Shown here: in pieces, positions 935 to 10,733 of the stretch
How the letters are laid out: every line of letters starts with the position of its first letter
Position numbering within the stretch: position 1 is the first letter of the stretch
Origin: a virus
UHGV virus genome: UHGV-0333516
Length of the DNA stretch: 10,733 nt
Reading direction: 5' to 3' (one strand)
The notes under the pieces: generated by a model
Told to the model about the DNA's origin: nothing
The model's input: the letters and a program-made list of their open reading frames with translations, nothing else
Databases searched by the model: none
Position numbers and translations under genes: made by a program

Positions 935-1519
935 GTGGGTAAAGAACCTGAATGGAAAGTTGATAAACAACCAGCATGGCTGGTGGCAGCAATACGAAGA
1001 ACGATTGCTGATTTACCTCATGGCTATGAGGAAGCAGCAGAAATTCTTGGTTTGTATAAATCTGATGATATCACCCCAGCAAAAGATCAATTGCATAACA
1101 GACTGCGTAGCGGTGGGGATCAAATTTTTCCACTTGAGTGGGCCATGGTTTTACAGGATGCCAGTGGTACCAGGCATGTAACAGATGCAATAGCCCGTCG
1201 TAGTAATGGGGTGTTTGTGCCGCTGGTGGTCATTGATGACATTGACAATGGTGACATTAATCAGCGGCTGATGGAGTCAATAGAATGGATTGGCAAGCAT
1301 TCCCAGTACTTACGCAAGGCAACTGCTGATGGAGTTATTGACCAGGCTGAGCGTGAGCAAATCGAAGAGAACAGCTACCAAGTAATGGCGAAGTGGCAGG
1401 AGCATTTAACACTGTTATTTCGTGTTTTTTGTGCGCCGGAAAAGAGTAACGCCCGCGAGTGTGCAGCTCCGGGCGTCGTGGCGTCGATTGCTTCTGGTTG
1501 TGGAGAAACTAACGCATGA
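935..1519 (+). CDS. CII-like phage regulatory protein (CP76/YdaT-like family, assignment by eye)
   Basis: 194-aa ORF directly after cro, GTG start with RBS gagga; its position matches cII-type genes of lambdoid prophages; its stop overlaps the next ATG (ATGA). Confidence 0.45.
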   Translation: MGKEPEWKVDKQPAWLVAAIRRTIADLPHGYEEAAEILGLYKSDDITPAKDQLHNRLRSGGDQIFPLEWAMVLQDASGTRHVTDAIARRSNGVFVPLVVIDDIDNGDINQRLMESIEWIGKHSQYLRKATADGVIDQAEREQIEENSYQVMAKWQEHLTLLFRVFCAPEKSNARECAAPGVVASIASGCGETNA

Positions 1520-1844
1520 ATAGTTTAACGGCAAATAACCGTTTGTCGCAACAGCTGGTGGTCAGCGTCGCTGAACACCTGTTGTTACGGCATGAATGCA
1601 GATTACCAAATCACCTGGCTGTAAGTAACCACAGAGAACTTTACCTGACTGTGGGGGGCGAGTTGTGCAGGAACTTAACCGCTGGTTTCGTGACGGAAGA
1701 GGGCTTTATGTCCATGTTATTCGTTGGGAGCCAGAAACACAGCGCGTTATCTATCTTCGCAAAGACTACCCGCATGAGTGCTTTAGTCCTTTGTGGAAAT
1801 TCAGGCGTGATTTTGTTGAGTGTGAAGGACCACCAGCATATTGA
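1516..1844 (+). CDS. hypothetical protein, reading frame apparently disrupted at a G6 tract (1653-1658)
   Basis: The ATG at 1516 is coupled to the upstream stop. After the G6 run the protein-like reading (RVVQELNRWFRDGRGLYVHVIRWEPETQRVIYLRKDYPHECFSPLWKFRRDFVECEGPPAY*) continues in the adjacent frame to a stop at 1842-1844. One additional G would fuse the two parts. Confidence 0.3.
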
Positions 1845-1932
1845 TTCTGCAATTCCGGGACGTTACACTGCTCAGGCACCTTATAAAGCGGGTGCCGGGA
1901 TTGGCGTCCTGAAATTGTCAACGGCGATGTAT

Positions 1933-1952
1933 GACGCGCCAGCGTCTTTTTT
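1933..1952 (+). terminator. candidate intrinsic terminator
   Basis: gacgc-gcca-gcgtc stem-loop followed by tttttt; lies inside the 386-aa track ORF. Confidence 0.4.
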
Positions 1953-2118
1953 ATCGTCCGCATTTGCTCACATCCAGATTATGGTGGGCTGGGCGGGGGC
2001 ACCGAAAGGTGCGCCGGTCTCCGTTGACGCCGGTTACGCCAACCCCGTCCAGTTCACCACCAGTGAAATTGGCGTTTCCGGTGGTGGAAGTTTTTCACTG
2101 TCAACGGAGGCTGCCATC

Positions 2119-2676
2119 ATGGCTACGATCCCAGCCCTCACTCAACCTGAAATCACCATTGACAACGGCCAGGCCGTTACCACTTCTTTGGCTGTTGCCA
2201 ACTTCTTCTCCAAGCGTCACGACGATGTGCTGAAAAAGATCCGCACTCTGGATTGTTCCCCAGAGTTTTGTGCCCGCAATTTTGCGGAGACATCGATTTC
2301 GGTAAATCAACCGAACGGTGGTACACGCAAGCTCCCTTGCTATCAAATCACACGAGACGGTTTTGCGTTTCTTGCTATGGGTTTCACGGGTAAACGTGCT
2401 GCCCGGTTCAAAGAGGCATACATAAATGCCTTTAACCAGATGGAGAAACAGCTTTCAAAGCCCGCTGTACCGAGCGACGTTGCACATAACGCCAGCGTTC
2501 TCTGTTCCTACATTTCATCAATTCATCAGGTCTGGCTGCAGCAGCTTTATCCTATGTTGGCAAAAGCCGAATCTCCGCTGGCTGTTAGCTTATATGACTA
2601 TATTAATGATGCTTCGGCGCTGGCCAGTCTCATAAATTTGTCGCTGAACCCTTCAGAGGTAAGGGGGCGCAAATGA
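2119..2676 (+). CDS. Rha-family phage regulatory protein
   Basis: Rha-type motif ITIDNGQAVTTSLAVANFFSKRHDDVLKKIR...GGTRKLPCYQITRDGFAFLAMGFTGKRAARFKEAYINAFNQME. The internal ATG at 2119 has RBS ggagg 8 nt upstream. The track ORF 1516..2676 is the same frame; its 5' extension is doubtful. Confidence 0.65.
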   Translation: MATIPALTQPEITIDNGQAVTTSLAVANFFSKRHDDVLKKIRTLDCSPEFCARNFAETSISVNQPNGGTRKLPCYQITRDGFAFLAMGFTGKRAARFKEAYINAFNQMEKQLSKPAVPSDVAHNASVLCSYISSIHQVWLQQLYPMLAKAESPLAVSLYDYINDASALASLINLSLNPSEVRGRK

Positions 2677-2897
2677 TCCGGAATATTTTCAAACGGTTTA
2701 CCAATCATACTTTCCGTTGTCCTCGTCCGGGTCAGTGGTACACCACGCCTGCTGGGCATGTTCTACGTGTTAGCCTGGTTGACCGTGAATGTCAGAAGGT
2801 GGTTTGTGAACCGCTGGGCCGTAATTACCGCGTCAGTATGCCGCTTATAGCCTTTTGCTCCGGAAAAATGTTTAAGCGTCTGGGAGGTGTGGCGTGA
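2673..2897 (+). CDS. hypothetical small Cys-containing protein
   Basis: 74-aa ORF, ATGA overlap with Rha stop, RBS agggggc upstream. Confidence 0.45.
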   Translation: MIRNIFKRFTNHTFRCPRPGQWYTTPAGHVLRVSLVDRECQKVVCEPLGRNYRVSMPLIAFCSGKMFKRLGGVA

Positions 2898-3193
2898 ACT
2901 GTTTTCAGTTTGTGTGCGGATGTGCTTTCGATAACCCGATTCAGCGCCTAATTATGTTGCGTGTTTTGATGTCGGGTTCTTCAGACGGTGAAGGCGAGAG
3001 AGTTATTGATCATCAGGTGCTTGCTGATTTCTGCTGTTGTTCTAAGCAAGCGATATTCAGGGAAACCCTGGCACTGGAAAGAGCTGGTTATCTTCATATC
3101 CGAAAAATTGCAACGCTTACTATTGATGCAAAAGCCAGACTACAACCTGCGCGTGGCTACACAATTCTCATGCTGCGGAAGGAGGTTGTATGA
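2894..3193 (+). CDS. hypothetical protein, possible DNA-binding
   Basis: 99-aa ORF, GTG start overlapping the upstream stop (GTGA), RBS gggagg upstream; alternative start at the internal Met. Confidence 0.45.
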   Translation: MNCFQFVCGCAFDNPIQRLIMLRVLMSGSSDGEGERVIDHQVLADFCCCSKQAIFRETLALERAGYLHIRKIATLTIDAKARLQPARGYTILMLRKEVV

Positions 3194-4185
3194 GCCGTTA
3201 CGCCCCCACACCGGAAGTTATGGCTATTGGTCAAATTAATATTTCCGGCAATGTTACACCTGCGACCTGGTGGAAATATATTCGACTACCCAGTGGGCGT
3301 CCGGATGCGACGGCTATCGCTCTGCTTTCAGAGATCGTTTACTGGTACCGCCCGACAGAGGTCAGGGATGAGCACACCGGAGCGTTGCTGGGATATCGCA
3401 AGCGTTTTCAGGGCGACAAACTGCAAAGAAGCTACCAGGCGTTTGCTGAGCAGTTTGGTTTCGGGAAAAGGGAAACCGCAGATGCGCTGAAGCGTCTGCG
3501 CGATGCAGGGTTTATTACTCTGGATTTACGCACGGTGGAAATGCTCGATGGGGTGAAATGCAGCAATATTTTGTTTGTCGGGATCAACCCACAGGCAATT
3601 GCGGCCATCACCACACCTTCTTCTGTTTCGCCAGAAAGTAACAGCAATAATGCAATCAGCGATACAGCTATTACGTTAAAACGGAACACCCCCCGACGTC
3701 ATAACGGAACAGGGGATACGCCGAATGTTGATACAAATACAGAGATTACTACAGAGATTACTACAGAGATTACAACGGAGACTAAAAACACTATTGGCGC
3801 ATCCGCTGACGCGTCTGCACCAGCGCGTTCTGCCAGACAGGAATATTCACCGGAATTTGAACAGGCCTGGCAGGAATATCCCAAACGTGCTGGTGGTAAT
3901 TCAAAATCCGCCGCTTTTAAAGCCTGGAAAGCCCGAATCAGGGAAGGTGTGACACCCGAAACCATGCTCGACGGTGTGAAACGCTATGCCGCCTGGGTGC
4001 GTGTCTCTGGAAATACCGGTACCCAGTTCGTGAAGCAGGCGTCGACGTTCTTTGGTCCGGATCGTCATTTCGAAGAATCCTGGGAAGTTCCTGCGGTATC
4101 TGCAGCCAGACGCGAGGACCCGTACTTCAAAGCCAGTTACGACAACGTGGACTACAGCCAGATCCCGGAAGGATTCAGGGGGTGA
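3190..4185 (+). CDS. phage replication protein with DnaT-like C-terminus
   Basis: 331-aa ORF with strong RBS ggaaggagg; C-terminal ...DYSQIPEGFRG resembles the C-terminus of primosomal protein DnaT (...SQIPPGFRG); central TEITTEITTEITTE linker. Confidence 0.65.
   Translation: MSRYAPTPEVMAIGQINISGNVTPATWWKYIRLPSGRPDATAIALLSEIVYWYRPTEVRDEHTGALLGYRKRFQGDKLQRSYQAFAEQFGFGKRETADALKRLRDAGFITLDLRTVEMLDGVKCSNILFVGINPQAIAAITTPSSVSPESNSNNAISDTAITLKRNTPRRHNGTGDTPNVDTNTEITTEITTEITTETKNTIGASADASAPARSARQEYSPEFEQAWQEYPKRAGGNSKSAAFKAWKARIREGVTPETMLDGVKRYAAWVRVSGNTGTQFVKQASTFFGPDRHFEESWEVPAVSAARREDPYFKASYDNVDYSQIPEGFRG
3739..3786. repeat. tandem 12-bp direct repeats (about 3.5-4 copies) inside the replication gene
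   Basis: acagagattact x2, acagagattaca, then degenerate acggagactaaa. Confidence 0.8.
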
Positions 4186-10428: not shown

Positions 10429-10504
10429 GGCCCTTTAGCTCAGTGGTGAGAGCGAGCGACTCATAATCGCCAGGTCGCTGGTTCAAATCCAGCAAGGGCC
10501 ACCA
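10429..10504 (+). tRNA. tRNA-Ile(CAU) (ileX/ileZ-like; tRNA-Met not excluded)
   Basis: 76-nt cloverleaf: acceptor ggccctt/aagggcc, D-stem gctc/gagc, anticodon loop ctcataa (CAT), T-loop ttcaaat, 3' ACCA; close to E. coli ileX. Confidence 0.8.
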
Positions 10505-10513
10505 TATCACATA

Positions 10514-10590
10514 CCGCCATTAGCTCATCGGGATAGAGCGTCAGCCTTCGAAGCTGGTTGCGCGGGGTTCGAGTCCTCGATGGCGGTCCA
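10514..10590 (+). tRNA. tRNA-Arg(UCG)
   Basis: 77-nt cloverleaf: acceptor ccgccat/atggcgg, D-stem gctc/gagc, anticodon loop cttcgaa (TCG), T-arm cgggg-ttcgagt-cctcg, 3' TCCA. Confidence 0.75.
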
Positions 10591-10615: not shown

Positions 10616-10733
10616 CCCGCGCAACCAGCTTCGAAGGCTGACGCTCTATCCCGATGAGCTAATGGCGGTATGTGATATGGTGGCCCTTGCTGGATTTGAA
10701 CCAGCGACCTGGCGATTATGAGTCGCTCGCTCT
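10616..10733 (-). repeat. perfect 118-bp inverted duplicate of 10449-10566 (partial tRNA-Arg and tRNA-Ile copies), running to the window end
   Basis: 10616-10733 is the exact reverse complement of 10449-10566; the 49-bp unique spacer 10567-10615 holds the tRNA-Arg 3' end. Confidence 0.9.

What the first reader, a model, noticed from the sequence alone, without database searches (positions are those of the whole stretch)
1516..2118. G6 tract at a frame junction; the 386-aa ORF is probably not one gene
The ORF starting at 1516 is coupled to the upstream gene. At the G6 run (1653-1658) the protein-like reading moves to the adjacent frame (RVVQELNRWFRDGRGLYVHVIRWEPETQ...GPPAY*, stop 1842-1844). 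One extra G would give a single ORF of about 108 aa. The original frame remains open to 2118 with Ala/Gly/Ser-rich, low-complexity translation and contains a terminator-like hairpin plus T6 at 1933-1952. An internal RBS and ATG at 2119 mark the start of a typical Rha protein. This is either a homopolymer sequencing error, a genuine frameshift pseudogene, or a slipped-strand contingency tract.
Basis: partly seen in the sequence, partly recalled or inferred. Interest (0 to 1): 0.45.

Follow-up and report, generated by a model that had tools for sequence, protein, structure and literature searches.

The report
Small gene and RNA switch inside ORF
The 386-codon ORF is not damaged by a G-run error: it is a reading frame kept open across a small out-of-frame gene, two regulatory RNA genes and an antirepressor gene that has its own RNA-controlled start, and the G6 run sits where the small gene's ribosome-binding site is in every relative.

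Summary
The frameshift explanations are not supported.

- **G6 (1653-1658):** it lies 6 nt upstream of GTG 1665, the start of a stand-alone 59-aa DUF4222 gene (1665-1844). In 40 distant relatives this position holds a GGAGG-type ribosome-binding site followed by ATG. G6 is fixed in at least 120 viral contigs, against 2 with G7 and 1 with G5.
- **1845-2118:** this stretch is RNA, not protein. It holds an IsrK-like sRNA with a terminator (1876-1952) and a C4 antisense RNA (1977-2064). The C4 loops pair with targets a1/b1 and a2/b2, and b2 covers the ribosome-binding site of the Rha antirepressor start at ATG 2119. These pairings covary across at least 9 specificities.
- **1516-1664:** this encodes a YmfM-like N-terminal peptide in frame 1.
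- **Unexpected result:** frame 1 is kept free of stops through all of these elements in 48 of 48 haplotypes. The other two frames carry 2-4 stops each. All indels are multiples of 3, and there is no amino-acid constraint over the RNA genes. Free-standing copies of the same RNA module have stops in all three frames.

My inference is that ribosomes read across the module on the early operon transcript. The parts are of known kinds; their arrangement is a new variant.

The parts
935..1519 (+). ymfL-like (cII/CP76-type) gene. Its TGA (1517-1519) overlaps ATG 1516. PGAP-annotated homologues start at the equivalent of window position 962.
   Evidence: Pfam Phage_CP76 1.3e-06. Annotated as 'protein YmfL' in near-identical E. 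coli prophages.
1502..1506 (+). GGAGA ribosome-binding site 10 nt upstream of ATG 1516
   Evidence: GTGGAGA-AACTA-ACGCATGAAC is conserved across genera in the wide alignment.
1516..1664 (+). YmfM-like N-terminal coding segment (frame 1, about 49 codons)
   Evidence: Homologous in the same frame to e14 ymfM and to 39 relatives. The substitution pattern in relatives is codon-like in this frame, 0.41/0.32/0.64.
1653..1658 (+). G6 run: Shine-Dalgarno-like element for the DUF4222 gene, 6 nt before GTG 1665
   Evidence: Aligns with GGAGG, AGGAAGG or AAGGAG plus ATG/TTG in 40 relatives. Census: G6 in at least 120 contigs, G7 in 2, G5 in 1.
1665..1844 (+). DUF4222 gene (59 aa, GTG start, frame 3), nested out of frame inside the long ORF
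   Evidence: Pfam PF13973 9.4e-14. phrog_1343 positions 1-58 of 59, 1.9e-36. Annotated separately by PGAP in UPEC129. Third-position variation falls in this frame.
1841..1869 (+). Inferred promoter of the sRNA module (TTGATT-N17-TACACT). The -35 hexamer contains the DUF4222 stop codon TGA.
   Evidence: A TTG...N17-18...TAnnnT pattern lies at a fixed distance from the isrK 5' end in six independent contexts, including a P1-like phage. It is below the threshold of the strict scan.
1876..1952 (+). IsrK-like sRNA. It carries targets a1 (TTGGCGT, 1901-1907) and b1 (GTCAACGGCG, 1917-1926) and an intrinsic terminator (1933-1952).
   Evidence: Rfam RF01394 62.2 bits, gathering score 50. Terminator scan. 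Covariation: a1-a' 99% paired, b1-b' 90% paired.
1977..2064 (+). C4-type antisense RNA. Loop b' is CUCCGUUGAC (2019-2028) and single-stranded a' is ACGCCAA (2036-2042). ATG 1981 corresponds to the Gifsy-1 orf45 start.
   Evidence: Rfam RF01695 81.4 bits, gathering score 45. Its helices are 100% paired with compensatory changes.
2069..2110 (+). Downstream targets a2 (TTGGCGT, 2069-2075) and b2 (GTCAACGGAG, 2100-2109). b2 overlaps the ribosome-binding site GGAGG (2106-2110).
   Evidence: b2 is the exact reverse complement of the C4 loop. b'-b2 is 96% paired with changes on both sides at 7 of 10 pairs; a'-a2 is about 94% paired. The cis fold sequesters this region.
2119..2676 (+). Rha-family antirepressor or regulator gene (185 aa), with a C4-controlled start
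   Evidence: TIGR02681 1.3e-26 at aa 12-114. Pfam Phage_pRha 8e-28. phrog_821 4e-116.
1516..2676 (+). Frame-1 through-reading frame (386 codons), kept stop-free across all the elements above and in phase with ATG 2119
   Evidence: 0 stops in 48 of 48 haplotypes, against means of 4.2 and 2.2 in the other two frames. Region lengths are 271, 274 or 277 nt. Free-standing modules have stops in all three frames.

Best explanation
**Shown.** Positions 1516-2676 hold a stack of separate functional elements that share one open frame.
1. A YmfM-like N-terminal peptide segment (1516-1664, frame 1), translationally coupled to ymfL through the ATGA overlap.
2. A nested, independently initiated 59-aa DUF4222 gene (GTG 1665-1844, frame 3). 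The G6 run sits in the position of its ribosome-binding site.
3. A P1 immI / Gifsy-1 isrK-type RNA switch. It comprises an IsrK-like sRNA carrying a1 and b1, a C4 antisense RNA carrying a' and b', and targets a2 and b2. Target b2 covers the ribosome-binding site of the next element.
4. A Rha-family antirepressor gene starting at ATG 2119.

**Inferred by homology.** C4 pairs with a2/b2, either in cis in the read-through transcript or in trans after processing. This blocks Rha translation in the lysogen. The short IsrK-like RNA (a1/b1) competes for C4 and relieves the block. This follows the experimentally established P1 and Gifsy-1 systems.

**Inferred from selection patterns.** Frame 1 is kept free of stops, and in phase with ATG 2119, without any constraint on its amino acids over the RNA genes. 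The likely reason is that ribosomes arriving from ymfL/ymfM on the early (PR-type) operon transcript must keep translating across the module. That would avoid termination at the IsrK terminator, Rho-dependent polarity and C4 occlusion, so that Rha and the coupled downstream replication genes are expressed during lytic growth.
For: **Identity of the elements:** Pfam, PHROG and NCBIfam hits and Rfam hits above gathering score.

**DUF4222 start and ribosome-binding site:**
- In 40 of 40 loci from diverse Enterobacteriaceae, DUF4222 is a 59-75-aa protein. Its ATG, GTG or TTG aligns with window position 1665, behind a purine-rich ribosome-binding site.
- Several loci have in-frame stops 1-2 codons upstream of that start.

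**Frame switch:** codon-position entropies change frame at the DUF4222 start.

**RNA function:**
- C4 helices are 100% paired.
- The b1/b'/b2 and a1/a'/a2 pairings covary across at least 9 b-specificities and 3 a-specificities. No shuffle of 500 reached the observed values, and slid controls pair only about 40%.
- b2 is the exact reverse complement of the C4 loop and overlaps the ribosome-binding site.
- The minimum-free-energy fold pairs C4 with a2/b2, z = -4.2.

**Through-frame:**
- All 53 unique DUF4222 coding sequences are stop-free in the ymfM frame, although synonymous-codon simulation gives P of about 0.057.
- All 48 RNA-region haplotypes are stop-free in frame 1. The other frames average 4.2 and 2.2 stops, at 43 and 30 distinct stop contexts.
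- All indels there are 3 nt.
- The regulated ATG is always in frame 1.
- All 104 unique segments that retain the reference frame are open to at least +583; the other four are the G5, G7 and 1-nt-deletion variants.
- Free-standing modules in VT2-Sakai, a P1-like phage and ArgO145 have stops in all three frames.
- In P4-like satellites the module again lies inside an ORF. In L128 that ORF overlaps its neighbours by 8 nt on both sides.

**Literature:** IsrK/orf45/anrP (PMC4825925). P1 c4/icd/ant (cited in PMC8201110).
Against: - There are no expression data for this locus. Promoter use, RNA processing, and translation of frame 1 beyond 1664 are all inferred.
- The strict sigma-70 scan found no promoter.
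- The 49-aa N-terminal segment has no PHROG hit. Within the close lineage its codon-position signal is weak (0.06/0.11/0.11).
- The haplotypes are related and mosaic, so the counts are not fully independent events.
- A 201-aa unconstrained N-terminal extension on Rha would be an odd protein.
- PGAP and phage annotators often call the whole ORF one 'Rha family' protein.
- A PHROG of 63-aa YmfM N-terminal-only proteins exists (phrog_20047). The ymfM frame may therefore not be kept open everywhere.
Confidence: 0.7

Rival explanations
1. A homopolymer sequencing error or a genuine frameshift pseudogene: the true gene is a 108-aa YmfM-N/DUF4222 fusion that needs G7.
For: One extra G would join the two readings. 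Two viral contigs do carry G7 and one carries G5.
Against: - G6 is present in at least 120 contigs, and in 82 of 85 close relatives.
- The same two-frame layout occurs in 40 distant loci without a homopolymer. There DUF4222 has its own ATG and ribosome-binding site.
- ST64B, C. braakii, L010 and L014 have stop codons in the DUF4222 frame 1-2 codons upstream of the start.
- The Pfam and PHROG models of the family begin at this Met.
Confidence: 0.02
2. A slipped-strand contingency tract, or a programmed -1 ribosomal frameshift on G_GGG_GGC, that produces some YmfM-N/DUF4222 fusion protein in this lineage.
For: G GGG GGC fits the X XXY YYZ slippery pattern in frame 1. The DUF4222 frame is open for 12 codons upstream of GTG in the window. 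The coding signal really does move from frame 1 to the -1 frame here.
Against: - Tract length is not polymorphic.
- Relatives have no conserved slippery heptamer.
- A fusion is impossible in ST64B and C. braakii.
- An independent start codon is conserved in 40 of 40 loci.
- Frame 1 is kept open downstream, which a frameshift model does not require.
Confidence: 0.04
3. The 386-aa ORF is one genuine multidomain protein (an N-terminal part, an 'Ash' domain and a Rha domain). The RNA hits are then incidental to a conserved protein domain (Pfam Phage_ASH, aa 117-212).
For: Pfam PF10554 3.7e-21. Many database proteins are named 'ash family'. Full-length colinear annotated homologues exist. The frame is conserved open.
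Against: - There is no codon periodicity over 1845-2118 (0.34/0.39/0.33, 0.50/0.46/0.58 and 0.69/0.76/0.74), whereas Rha gives 0.72/0.52/0.87.
- Variation follows RNA base-pairing instead, with compensatory and three-way covariation.
- The 'Ash' ORFs elsewhere exactly enclose Rfam isrK plus C4.
- Free-standing modules have stops in all frames.
- In Gifsy-1 the nucleotide sequence of orf45 is conserved while its amino-acid sequence varies (PMC4825925).
- Over 1665-1844, selection acts on the other frame.
Confidence: 0.07
4. Frame 1 beyond about 1664 is not translated. Its openness is a by-product of G+C-rich structured RNA, DUF4222 codon choice and shared ancestry.
For: The region is G+C-rich and conserved. 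The haplotypes are related. There is no direct evidence of translation.
Against: - The other two frames carry 2-4 stops per haplotype, at dozens of distinct sites.
- Simulation gives P of about 0.06 for the DUF4222 overlap, yet 53 of 53 sequences are open.
- Even the hypervariable specificity elements never create a frame-1 stop.
- All indels are 3 nt.
- The same RNA module outside an operon context has stops in every frame.
Confidence: 0.15

Closest known systems
Phage P1/P7 immI operon (c4 antisense RNA - icd - ant)
   Same: It has the same RNA family (Rfam C4, 81 bits). The order is the same: a1 b1 - c4 - a2 b2 - ribosome-binding site - regulated gene. b2 overlaps the ribosome-binding site. 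The regulated product belongs to the antirepressor class. Specificity is set by the a/b sequences, as in P1 versus P7 heteroimmunity. A promoter-like TTG..N17-18..TAnnnT lies at the same distance in a P1-like phage. The P1 biology comes from Citron & Schuster 1990 and Riedel et al. 1993, as cited in PMC8201110, and from my own knowledge.
   Different: Here the module sits inside the early-right operon of a lambdoid e14/SfV/ST64B-type prophage. The regulated gene is a Rha-family protein with no separate icd. A reading frame from the upstream genes runs through the whole module, whereas the P1-like copy has stops in all frames.
Gifsy-1 isrK - orf45 - anrP locus (Hershko-Shalev et al. 2016, PMC4825925)
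   Same: It has an IsrK-like sRNA with a leaky terminator (Rfam isrK, 62 bits), followed by a conserved RNA segment that can be translated (orf45; window ATG 1981), followed by an antirepressor-like gene. The long transcript folds so that the downstream ribosome-binding site is sequestered. An RNA of about 80 nt (STnc1160) is processed from orf45.
   Different: In Gifsy-1 the locus is free-standing, downstream of antQ, and the orf45 stop overlaps the anrP start (AUGA, out of frame). Here the equivalent frame is fused in phase with Rha and extends 465 nt further upstream, through IsrK and DUF4222 to ymfM. The 2016 paper does not mention phage P1 (0 occurrences of 'phage P1').
e14 ymfL-ymfM (E. 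coli K-12; YmfM = SOS-inducible cell-division inhibitor, bioRxiv 10.1101/2020.11.19.390815)
   Same: It has the same ATGA-coupled start after ymfL, a homologous N-terminal segment and the same nested out-of-frame DUF4222 ORF.
   Different: In e14-type loci the ymfM frame stops at +159 to +165, about 10 nt before the next gene (109-113 aa). In the window lineage that stop is missing and the frame continues through the inserted RNA module into Rha. No function of the window's 49-aa segment was tested, and it has no PHROG hit.
RgdR (ECs1581), the characterised DUF4222 prophage regulator of LEE/T3SS and motility (PMC3378721)
   Same: It shares the DUF4222 domain, it is a small prophage-encoded protein, and it was overlooked by annotation in EDL933.
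   Different: RgdR is 99 aa and has an RGD motif at positions 20-22. The window protein is 59 aa, reads RDGRG there, and was not compared with RgdR directly. Its function here is unknown.
Pfam PF10554 'Phage_ASH' / 'ash family protein' / Icd-like ORFs of P4-like satellites
   Same: The window ORF matches the model at aa 117-212 (nt 1864-2151). The satellite ORFs enclose isrK plus C4 in the same way. In L128 that ORF overlaps its neighbours, and in L129 it is followed by a gene starting at its stop.
   Different: In my data this 'domain' shows RNA-type constraint, not protein-type constraint. I therefore treat it as the translation of RNA genes rather than as a protein family.

Membership tests
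C4 antisense RNA (Rfam RF01695; P1/P7 c4) | Covariance-model score above the curated gathering threshold | tested here: met
   81.4 bits against a threshold of 45, full-length match to model positions 1-87.
C4 antisense RNA (Rfam RF01695; P1/P7 c4) | Closing stem plus two hairpins, supported by compensatory changes | tested here: met
   27 pairs are 100% paired in 16 haplotypes, and 8 pairs have changes on both sides.
C4 antisense RNA (Rfam RF01695; P1/P7 c4) | Loop b' and single-stranded a' are complementary to upstream (a1, b1) and downstream (a2, b2) targets, with b2 at the ribosome-binding site of the regulated gene | tested here: met
   The match to b2 is exact and overlaps GGAG. b1 matches at 9 of 10 positions. 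a1 and a2 match at 7 of 7. The pairings covary across at least 9 specificities.
C4 antisense RNA (Rfam RF01695; P1/P7 c4) | Processed from the operon transcript, and represses translation with Rho-dependent polarity | not testable with these tools
   Needs Northern blots, reporter assays or primer extension.
IsrK sRNA (Rfam RF01394) | Covariance-model score above threshold, with a 3' intrinsic terminator | tested here: met
   62.2 bits against a threshold of 50. Stem 1933-1946 plus T6.
IsrK sRNA (Rfam RF01394) | Own promoter immediately upstream | tested here: inconclusive
   TTGATT-N17-TACACT matches 8 of 12 positions, below the scan threshold. A positionally conserved -35/-10 pattern is nevertheless seen in 6 independent contexts.
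IsrK sRNA (Rfam RF01394) | Hfq binding, and trans-activation of the downstream antirepressor | not testable with these tools
   Experimental property, shown for Gifsy-1 in PMC4825925.
DUF4222 (PF13973; RgdR family) | Domain match above the gathering score, as a stand-alone small protein with its own start | tested here: met
   51.1 bits against a threshold of 27. phrog_1343 positions 1-58 of 59. Start codon and ribosome-binding site conserved in 40 of 40 loci. Purifying selection acts in this frame.
Rha family regulator / antirepressor (PF09669, TIGR02681) | An N-terminal Rha domain beginning about 10-20 aa after the start codon | tested here: met
   TIGR02681 covers aa 12-114 of the 185-aa product from ATG 2119, 92.7 bits against a threshold of 46.
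Rha family regulator / antirepressor (PF09669, TIGR02681) | Antirepressor activity against the prophage repressor | not testable with these tools
   Inferred only from family names and from the P1 and Gifsy-1 analogies.
Contingency locus (phase-variable homopolymer) | Tract-length polymorphism among close relatives | tested here: not met
   G6 in at least 120 contigs, G7 in 2, G5 in 1. 82 of 85 close relatives have G6.
Programmed -1 ribosomal frameshift | A conserved slippery heptamer, with the downstream frame lacking its own start | tested here: not met
   The heptamer is present only in the window lineage. Relatives have an ATG, GTG or TTG start plus a ribosome-binding site, and some have in-frame stops just upstream.
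YmfM (e14 cell-division inhibitor, phrog_1170) | Homology over the full protein of about 112 aa | tested here: not met
   Only the N-terminal segment of about 49 aa is homologous, at nucleotide level and in the same frame. It has no PHROG hit. The C-terminal half of YmfM is the unconstrained alternative frame of DUF4222.

The most novel reading that the evidence does not exclude
The frame-1 ORF is a deliberately maintained 'ribosome bridge'. The same DNA encodes two functional sRNAs (IsrK-like and C4) plus a nested gene, and also a translated spacer whose sequence does not matter. On the early operon transcript this spacer would carry ribosomes from ymfL/ymfM across the sRNA terminator and the C4-blocked ribosome-binding site. 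The phage could then express an N-terminally extended antirepressor and the downstream replication genes independently of the RNA immunity switch. A corollary is that the annotated K-12 division inhibitor YmfM is, in its C-terminal half, only the shadow of an unannotated DUF4222 gene. That gene could be the real effector.
Probability: 0.4. Interest if true: 0.65.

Novelty: new variant of a known kind. Interest (0 to 1): 0.5.

Why it matters
**Annotation.**
- Thousands of enterobacterial prophage records label this stretch as one 'Rha family', 'peptidase' or 'ash family' protein. In doing so they miss a DUF4222 gene and two sRNA genes.
- Pfam Phage_ASH appears to be the translation of RNA genes.

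**Phage biology.**
- The locus shows that a P1-type antisense-RNA immunity switch is widespread in lambdoid e14/SfV/ST64B-type prophages.
- The switch exists in at least nine mutually distinct specificities.
- The window lineage shows an additional layer: a frame kept open across the sRNA genes.
- This offers a testable model for how a terminator-containing sRNA module can sit inside a translationally coupled operon without blocking it.

**E. coli K-12.**
- The conserved, selected gene under ymfM is an unannotated DUF4222 ORF.
- That makes the long-standing question of which product causes SfiC-type filamentation directly testable with frame-specific mutations.

Tried and rejected
- **Frameshift error or pseudogene:** rejected on the G-run census and on conservation of the two-frame layout.
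- **Programmed frameshift:** rejected as the general mechanism. There is no conserved slippery site, there are upstream in-frame stops, and DUF4222 has its own conserved start.
- **'Ash' as a protein domain:** rejected on the absence of codon periodicity and on RNA covariation.
- **Strict sigma-70 scan of 1400-2300:** found no promoter. The promoter is therefore only inferred.
- **BLAST with the window's C4 sequence:** missed divergent C4 copies in 19 loci. Rfam and the alignment show they are present.
- **Protein search with the RNA-region translation:** returned mostly short or partial 'ash family' and Icd-like entries and did not list the long ORFs. It was useful only as a lead to the satellite loci.
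- **PHROG search of the 49-aa N-terminal segment:** no hit.
- **a'-a2 pair count:** slightly depressed by a 1-column alignment offset in ST64B-type sequences. I did not realign.
- **Riedel et al. 1993 on P1 icd:** not held in the library.
- **Not attempted:** structure prediction, because it would not discriminate between the hypotheses.
Full report
**Context.** The window is the early-right region of a lambdoid prophage of the e14/SfV/ST64B type. The segment 1400-2700 matches 69 phage records and 2464 of 5426 complete E. coli genomes. Gene order in relatives is cI – cro – ymfL – [this ORF] – small ORFs – replication genes. Successive genes overlap by ATGA or GTGA.

**Observation.**
- G6 at 1653-1658;
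- the 386-aa ORF 1516-2676, whose ATG overlaps the ymfL stop;
- a protein-like reading in the adjacent frame ending at 1842-1844;
- an open but low-complexity frame 1 up to 2118;
- a terminator (stem 1933-1946 plus T6);
- GGAGG followed by ATG 2119 in front of a Rha domain.

**The adjacent-frame reading is a real, independent gene.**
- GTG 1665-1844 encodes a 59-aa DUF4222 protein (Pfam 9.4e-14; phrog_1343 over positions 1-58 of 59). PGAP annotates it separately in a 96%-identical prophage.
- I collected 40 loci from different Enterobacteriaceae species with a DUF4222 alignment. In all of them the protein is 59-75 aa. Its start codon, mostly ATG, aligns exactly with window position 1665. A purine-rich ribosome-binding site (GGAGG, AGGAAGG or AAGGAG) lies 7-12 nt upstream, where the window has G6 (alignment).
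- ST64B and Citrobacter braakii have GGGGGA followed by an in-frame TGA 1-2 codons before the GTG. Two other loci have TAA two codons upstream. An N-terminal fusion is impossible in these.
- G6 itself is fixed. 82 of 85 close relatives have it.
- G6 therefore occupies the position of this gene's ribosome-binding site. It is not an error, a pseudogene lesion or a contingency tract.
- One family member, RgdR (ECs1581), is a characterised prophage regulator of the LEE type III secretion system and of motility (PMC3378721).

**The coding signal really does change frame here, in every lineage.**
- In the diverse loci an ORF starts with an ATG overlapping the ymfL stop, behind a conserved GGAGA. This is the ymfM frame, which is window frame 1.
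- Upstream of the DUF4222 start its substitution pattern is codon-like: entropy 0.41/0.32/0.64 by codon position.
- Downstream the pattern is codon-like only in the DUF4222 frame (0.38/0.27/1.06). The most variable position is therefore position 2 of the ymfM frame (same result in the close lineage).
- So about 50-60 N-terminal codons of YmfM are constrained as protein. The rest of YmfM is the unconstrained alternative frame of DUF4222.
- That alternative frame is nevertheless stop-free in 53 of 53 unique DUF4222 coding sequences. Synonymous-codon simulation gives a mean probability of 0.057, and the third frame averages 4 stops.
- In e14-type loci the ymfM frame ends at +159 to +165, in a TAG embedded in the conserved E-I-E of DUF4222. 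That is about 10 nt before the next gene's ATG.

**Positions 1845-2118 hold RNA genes.**
- Rfam finds an IsrK sRNA (1876-1952, 62 bits, threshold 50) and a C4 antisense RNA (1977-2064, 81 bits, threshold 45). There is also a weak c4-a1b1 hit.
- The C4 hairpin loop CUCCGUUGAC (2019-2028) is the exact reverse complement of GTCAACGGAG (2100-2109, b2). b2 overlaps the ribosome-binding site GGAGG of ATG 2119. The loop also matches 9 of 10 positions of GTCAACGGCG (1917-1926, b1, inside the IsrK-like RNA).
- The single-stranded ACGCCAA (2036-2042) pairs with TTGGCGT at 1901-1907 (a1) and at 2069-2075 (a2).
- The unique haplotypes of this region, 39 in the first set and 48 in the enlarged set, include at least nine different b sequences and three a sequences. 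Each changes in concert at all three sites.
- Pair counts on 16 representatives:

| Pairing | Cells paired | Note |
|---|---|---|
| C4 helices | 100% | compensatory changes present |
| b'-b2 | 96% | changes on both sides at 7 of 10 pairs |
| a'-a2 | about 94% | |
| b1-b' | 90% | |
| a1-a' | 99% | |

- None of 500 shuffles reached the observed values, and slid controls pair only about 40%.
- The cis fold of 1876-2125 pairs the C4 loop region with a2/b2 and the ribosome-binding site (z = -4.2).
- A TTG..N17-18..TAnnnT pattern lies at a fixed distance upstream of the IsrK 5' end in six independent contexts, including a P1-like phage. It falls below the strict scan threshold.
- This is the architecture of P1/P7 immI (a1 b1 – c4 – a2 b2 – regulated gene – ant) and of the Gifsy-1 isrK–orf45–anrP locus. 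In Gifsy-1 the short IsrK RNA relieves a translationally inactive long transcript, and an RNA of about 80 nt is processed from 'orf45' (PMC4825925; P1 references).
- ATG 2119 is therefore a genuine, RNA-regulated start of a 185-aa Rha-family protein.

**Frame 1 is nevertheless kept open.**
- I did not expect this. Across 108 unique segments, every one with an intact G-run has frame 1 open from ATG 1516 into the downstream antirepressor gene, whichever gene type follows (Rha-type or SfV-type).
- In the 48 unique haplotypes of the stretch between the DUF4222 stop and the regulated ATG, frame 1 has no stops. The other frames average 4.2 and 2.2, at 43 and 30 distinct stop contexts.
- The stretch is 271, 274 or 277 nt long, and the regulated ATG is always in frame 1. 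All indels are 3 nt.
- Yet there is no codon periodicity over the RNA genes (0.34/0.39/0.33; 0.50/0.46/0.58; 0.69/0.76/0.74), whereas Rha gives 0.72/0.52/0.87. The frame is selected to stay open, not to encode particular amino acids.
- RNA constraints do not force this. Free-standing copies of the module have stops in all three frames inside the RNA region. These are the VT2-Sakai nin region, a P1-like phage and ArgO145.
- In P4-like satellites the module is again enclosed by an ORF. In L128 that ORF overlaps its neighbours by 8 nt on both sides.
- Gifsy-1 provides a precedent. [quoted passage not shown]

**Mechanism.**
- *Shown:* the identity and layout of the elements, the RNA-RNA complementarity with covariation, and selection for an open, in-phase frame.
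- *Inferred by homology:* C4 sequesters the Rha ribosome-binding site, and the IsrK-like RNA counteracts C4.
- *Inferred from selection patterns:* on the early operon transcript, ribosomes coupled from ymfL and ymfM translate straight through DUF4222, IsrK, its terminator and C4 into Rha. This would suppress termination and Rho polarity and bypass the C4 block during lytic development. DUF4222 is initiated separately at its own ribosome-binding site. The last step is the weakest, and it is testable with frame-1 stop insertions that are silent for DUF4222 or that lie in the spacer.

**Comparison and novelty.**
- Each part is of a known kind: a DUF4222/RgdR family gene, IsrK, C4 and Rha.
- New relative to P1 and Gifsy-1 are three things: the position of the module inside a translationally coupled early operon; the through-reading frame fused in phase with the regulated gene; and the conserved nested ymfM/DUF4222 pair.
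- I file it as a new variant of a known kind.
- The G6 run, which was the headline of the finding, is ordinary.

**Limits.**
- There are no expression data.
- The haplotypes are related and mosaic, so counts overstate independence.
- The promoter is inferred.
- The function of the 49-aa N-terminal segment and of this DUF4222 protein is unknown.

Noticed in passing
L004 3002-3181 (= NC_000913.3 1204001-1204180), inside and just past ymfM (b1148): E. coli K-12 e14 carries an unannotated 59-codon DUF4222 ORF with an AAGGAG ribosome-binding site and a TTG start. It is nested out of frame in the annotated cell-division inhibitor gene ymfM. Purifying selection acts on the DUF4222 frame, not on the C-terminal half of YmfM. 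The published pBAD-ymfM clone of the annotated ORF would contain this ORF minus its last 6 codons, so which product causes filamentation is unresolved.
   Followed up: partly
window 1864-2151 (aa 117-212 of the long ORF); L127 3001-3441; L128 3001-3363; L129 3001-3459: Pfam PF10554 (Phage_ASH), NCBI 'ash family protein' and several PHROGs labelled 'transcriptional regulator' match the conceptual translation of the isrK plus C4 RNA genes. The constraint there is of RNA type (covariation, no codon periodicity), so this protein family looks like a translation of RNA genes.
   Followed up: partly
window 1917-1926, 2019-2028 and 2100-2109, and the same sites in L001-L126: At least nine b-element and three a-element specificities of the C4 system coexist among closely related prophages. 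Each changes in concert at b1, b' and b2 (or a1, a' and a2). This suggests a diversified set of RNA-based immunity or anti-immunity types, comparable to P1 versus P7.
   Followed up: partly
L129 2136-2309 and 3001-3459: A P4-like satellite (integrase, AlpA, primase) carries both a stand-alone 57-aa DUF4222 gene and an isrK-C4 module. The enclosing ORF of that module ends in an Icd-like domain (NF033153). DUF4222 and the C4 module therefore co-occur outside lambdoid phages.
   Followed up: no
window 1841-1846: The DUF4222 stop codon TGA (1842-1844) lies inside the inferred -35 hexamer TTGATT of the sRNA promoter. The end of the gene and the start of the RNA module therefore share sequence.
   Followed up: no
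window 10429-10501, 10514-10587 and 10681-10733 (minus strand, cut by the window end): There are three tRNA-like hits at the right end of the window. The mir-B6 and Plastid-ycf2 hits over the same bases are below threshold and look spurious.
   Followed up: no
window 2673-4185: The downstream ORFs (2673-2897, 2894-3193, 3190-4185) each overlap the preceding ORF by 4 nt. This fits a fully translationally coupled operon. In a near-identical prophage, 3190-4185 is annotated as an 'LvrA C-terminal domain-related protein'.
   Followed up: no
L250, L251 (G7), L252 (G5), L054 (1-nt deletion after the G run): Rare variants change the G-run region by one base, which would fuse or break the frames. I did not determine whether they are sequencing errors or real mutants.
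   Followed up: no
window about 1585-1640, and the alignment: Within the YmfM-like N-terminal segment, the nucleotide stretch CGGYATGAAYGCAGA..TA.CAAA...GTAACCACAG is unusually conserved across genera. This may indicate an additional nucleic-acid-level element.
   Followed up: no
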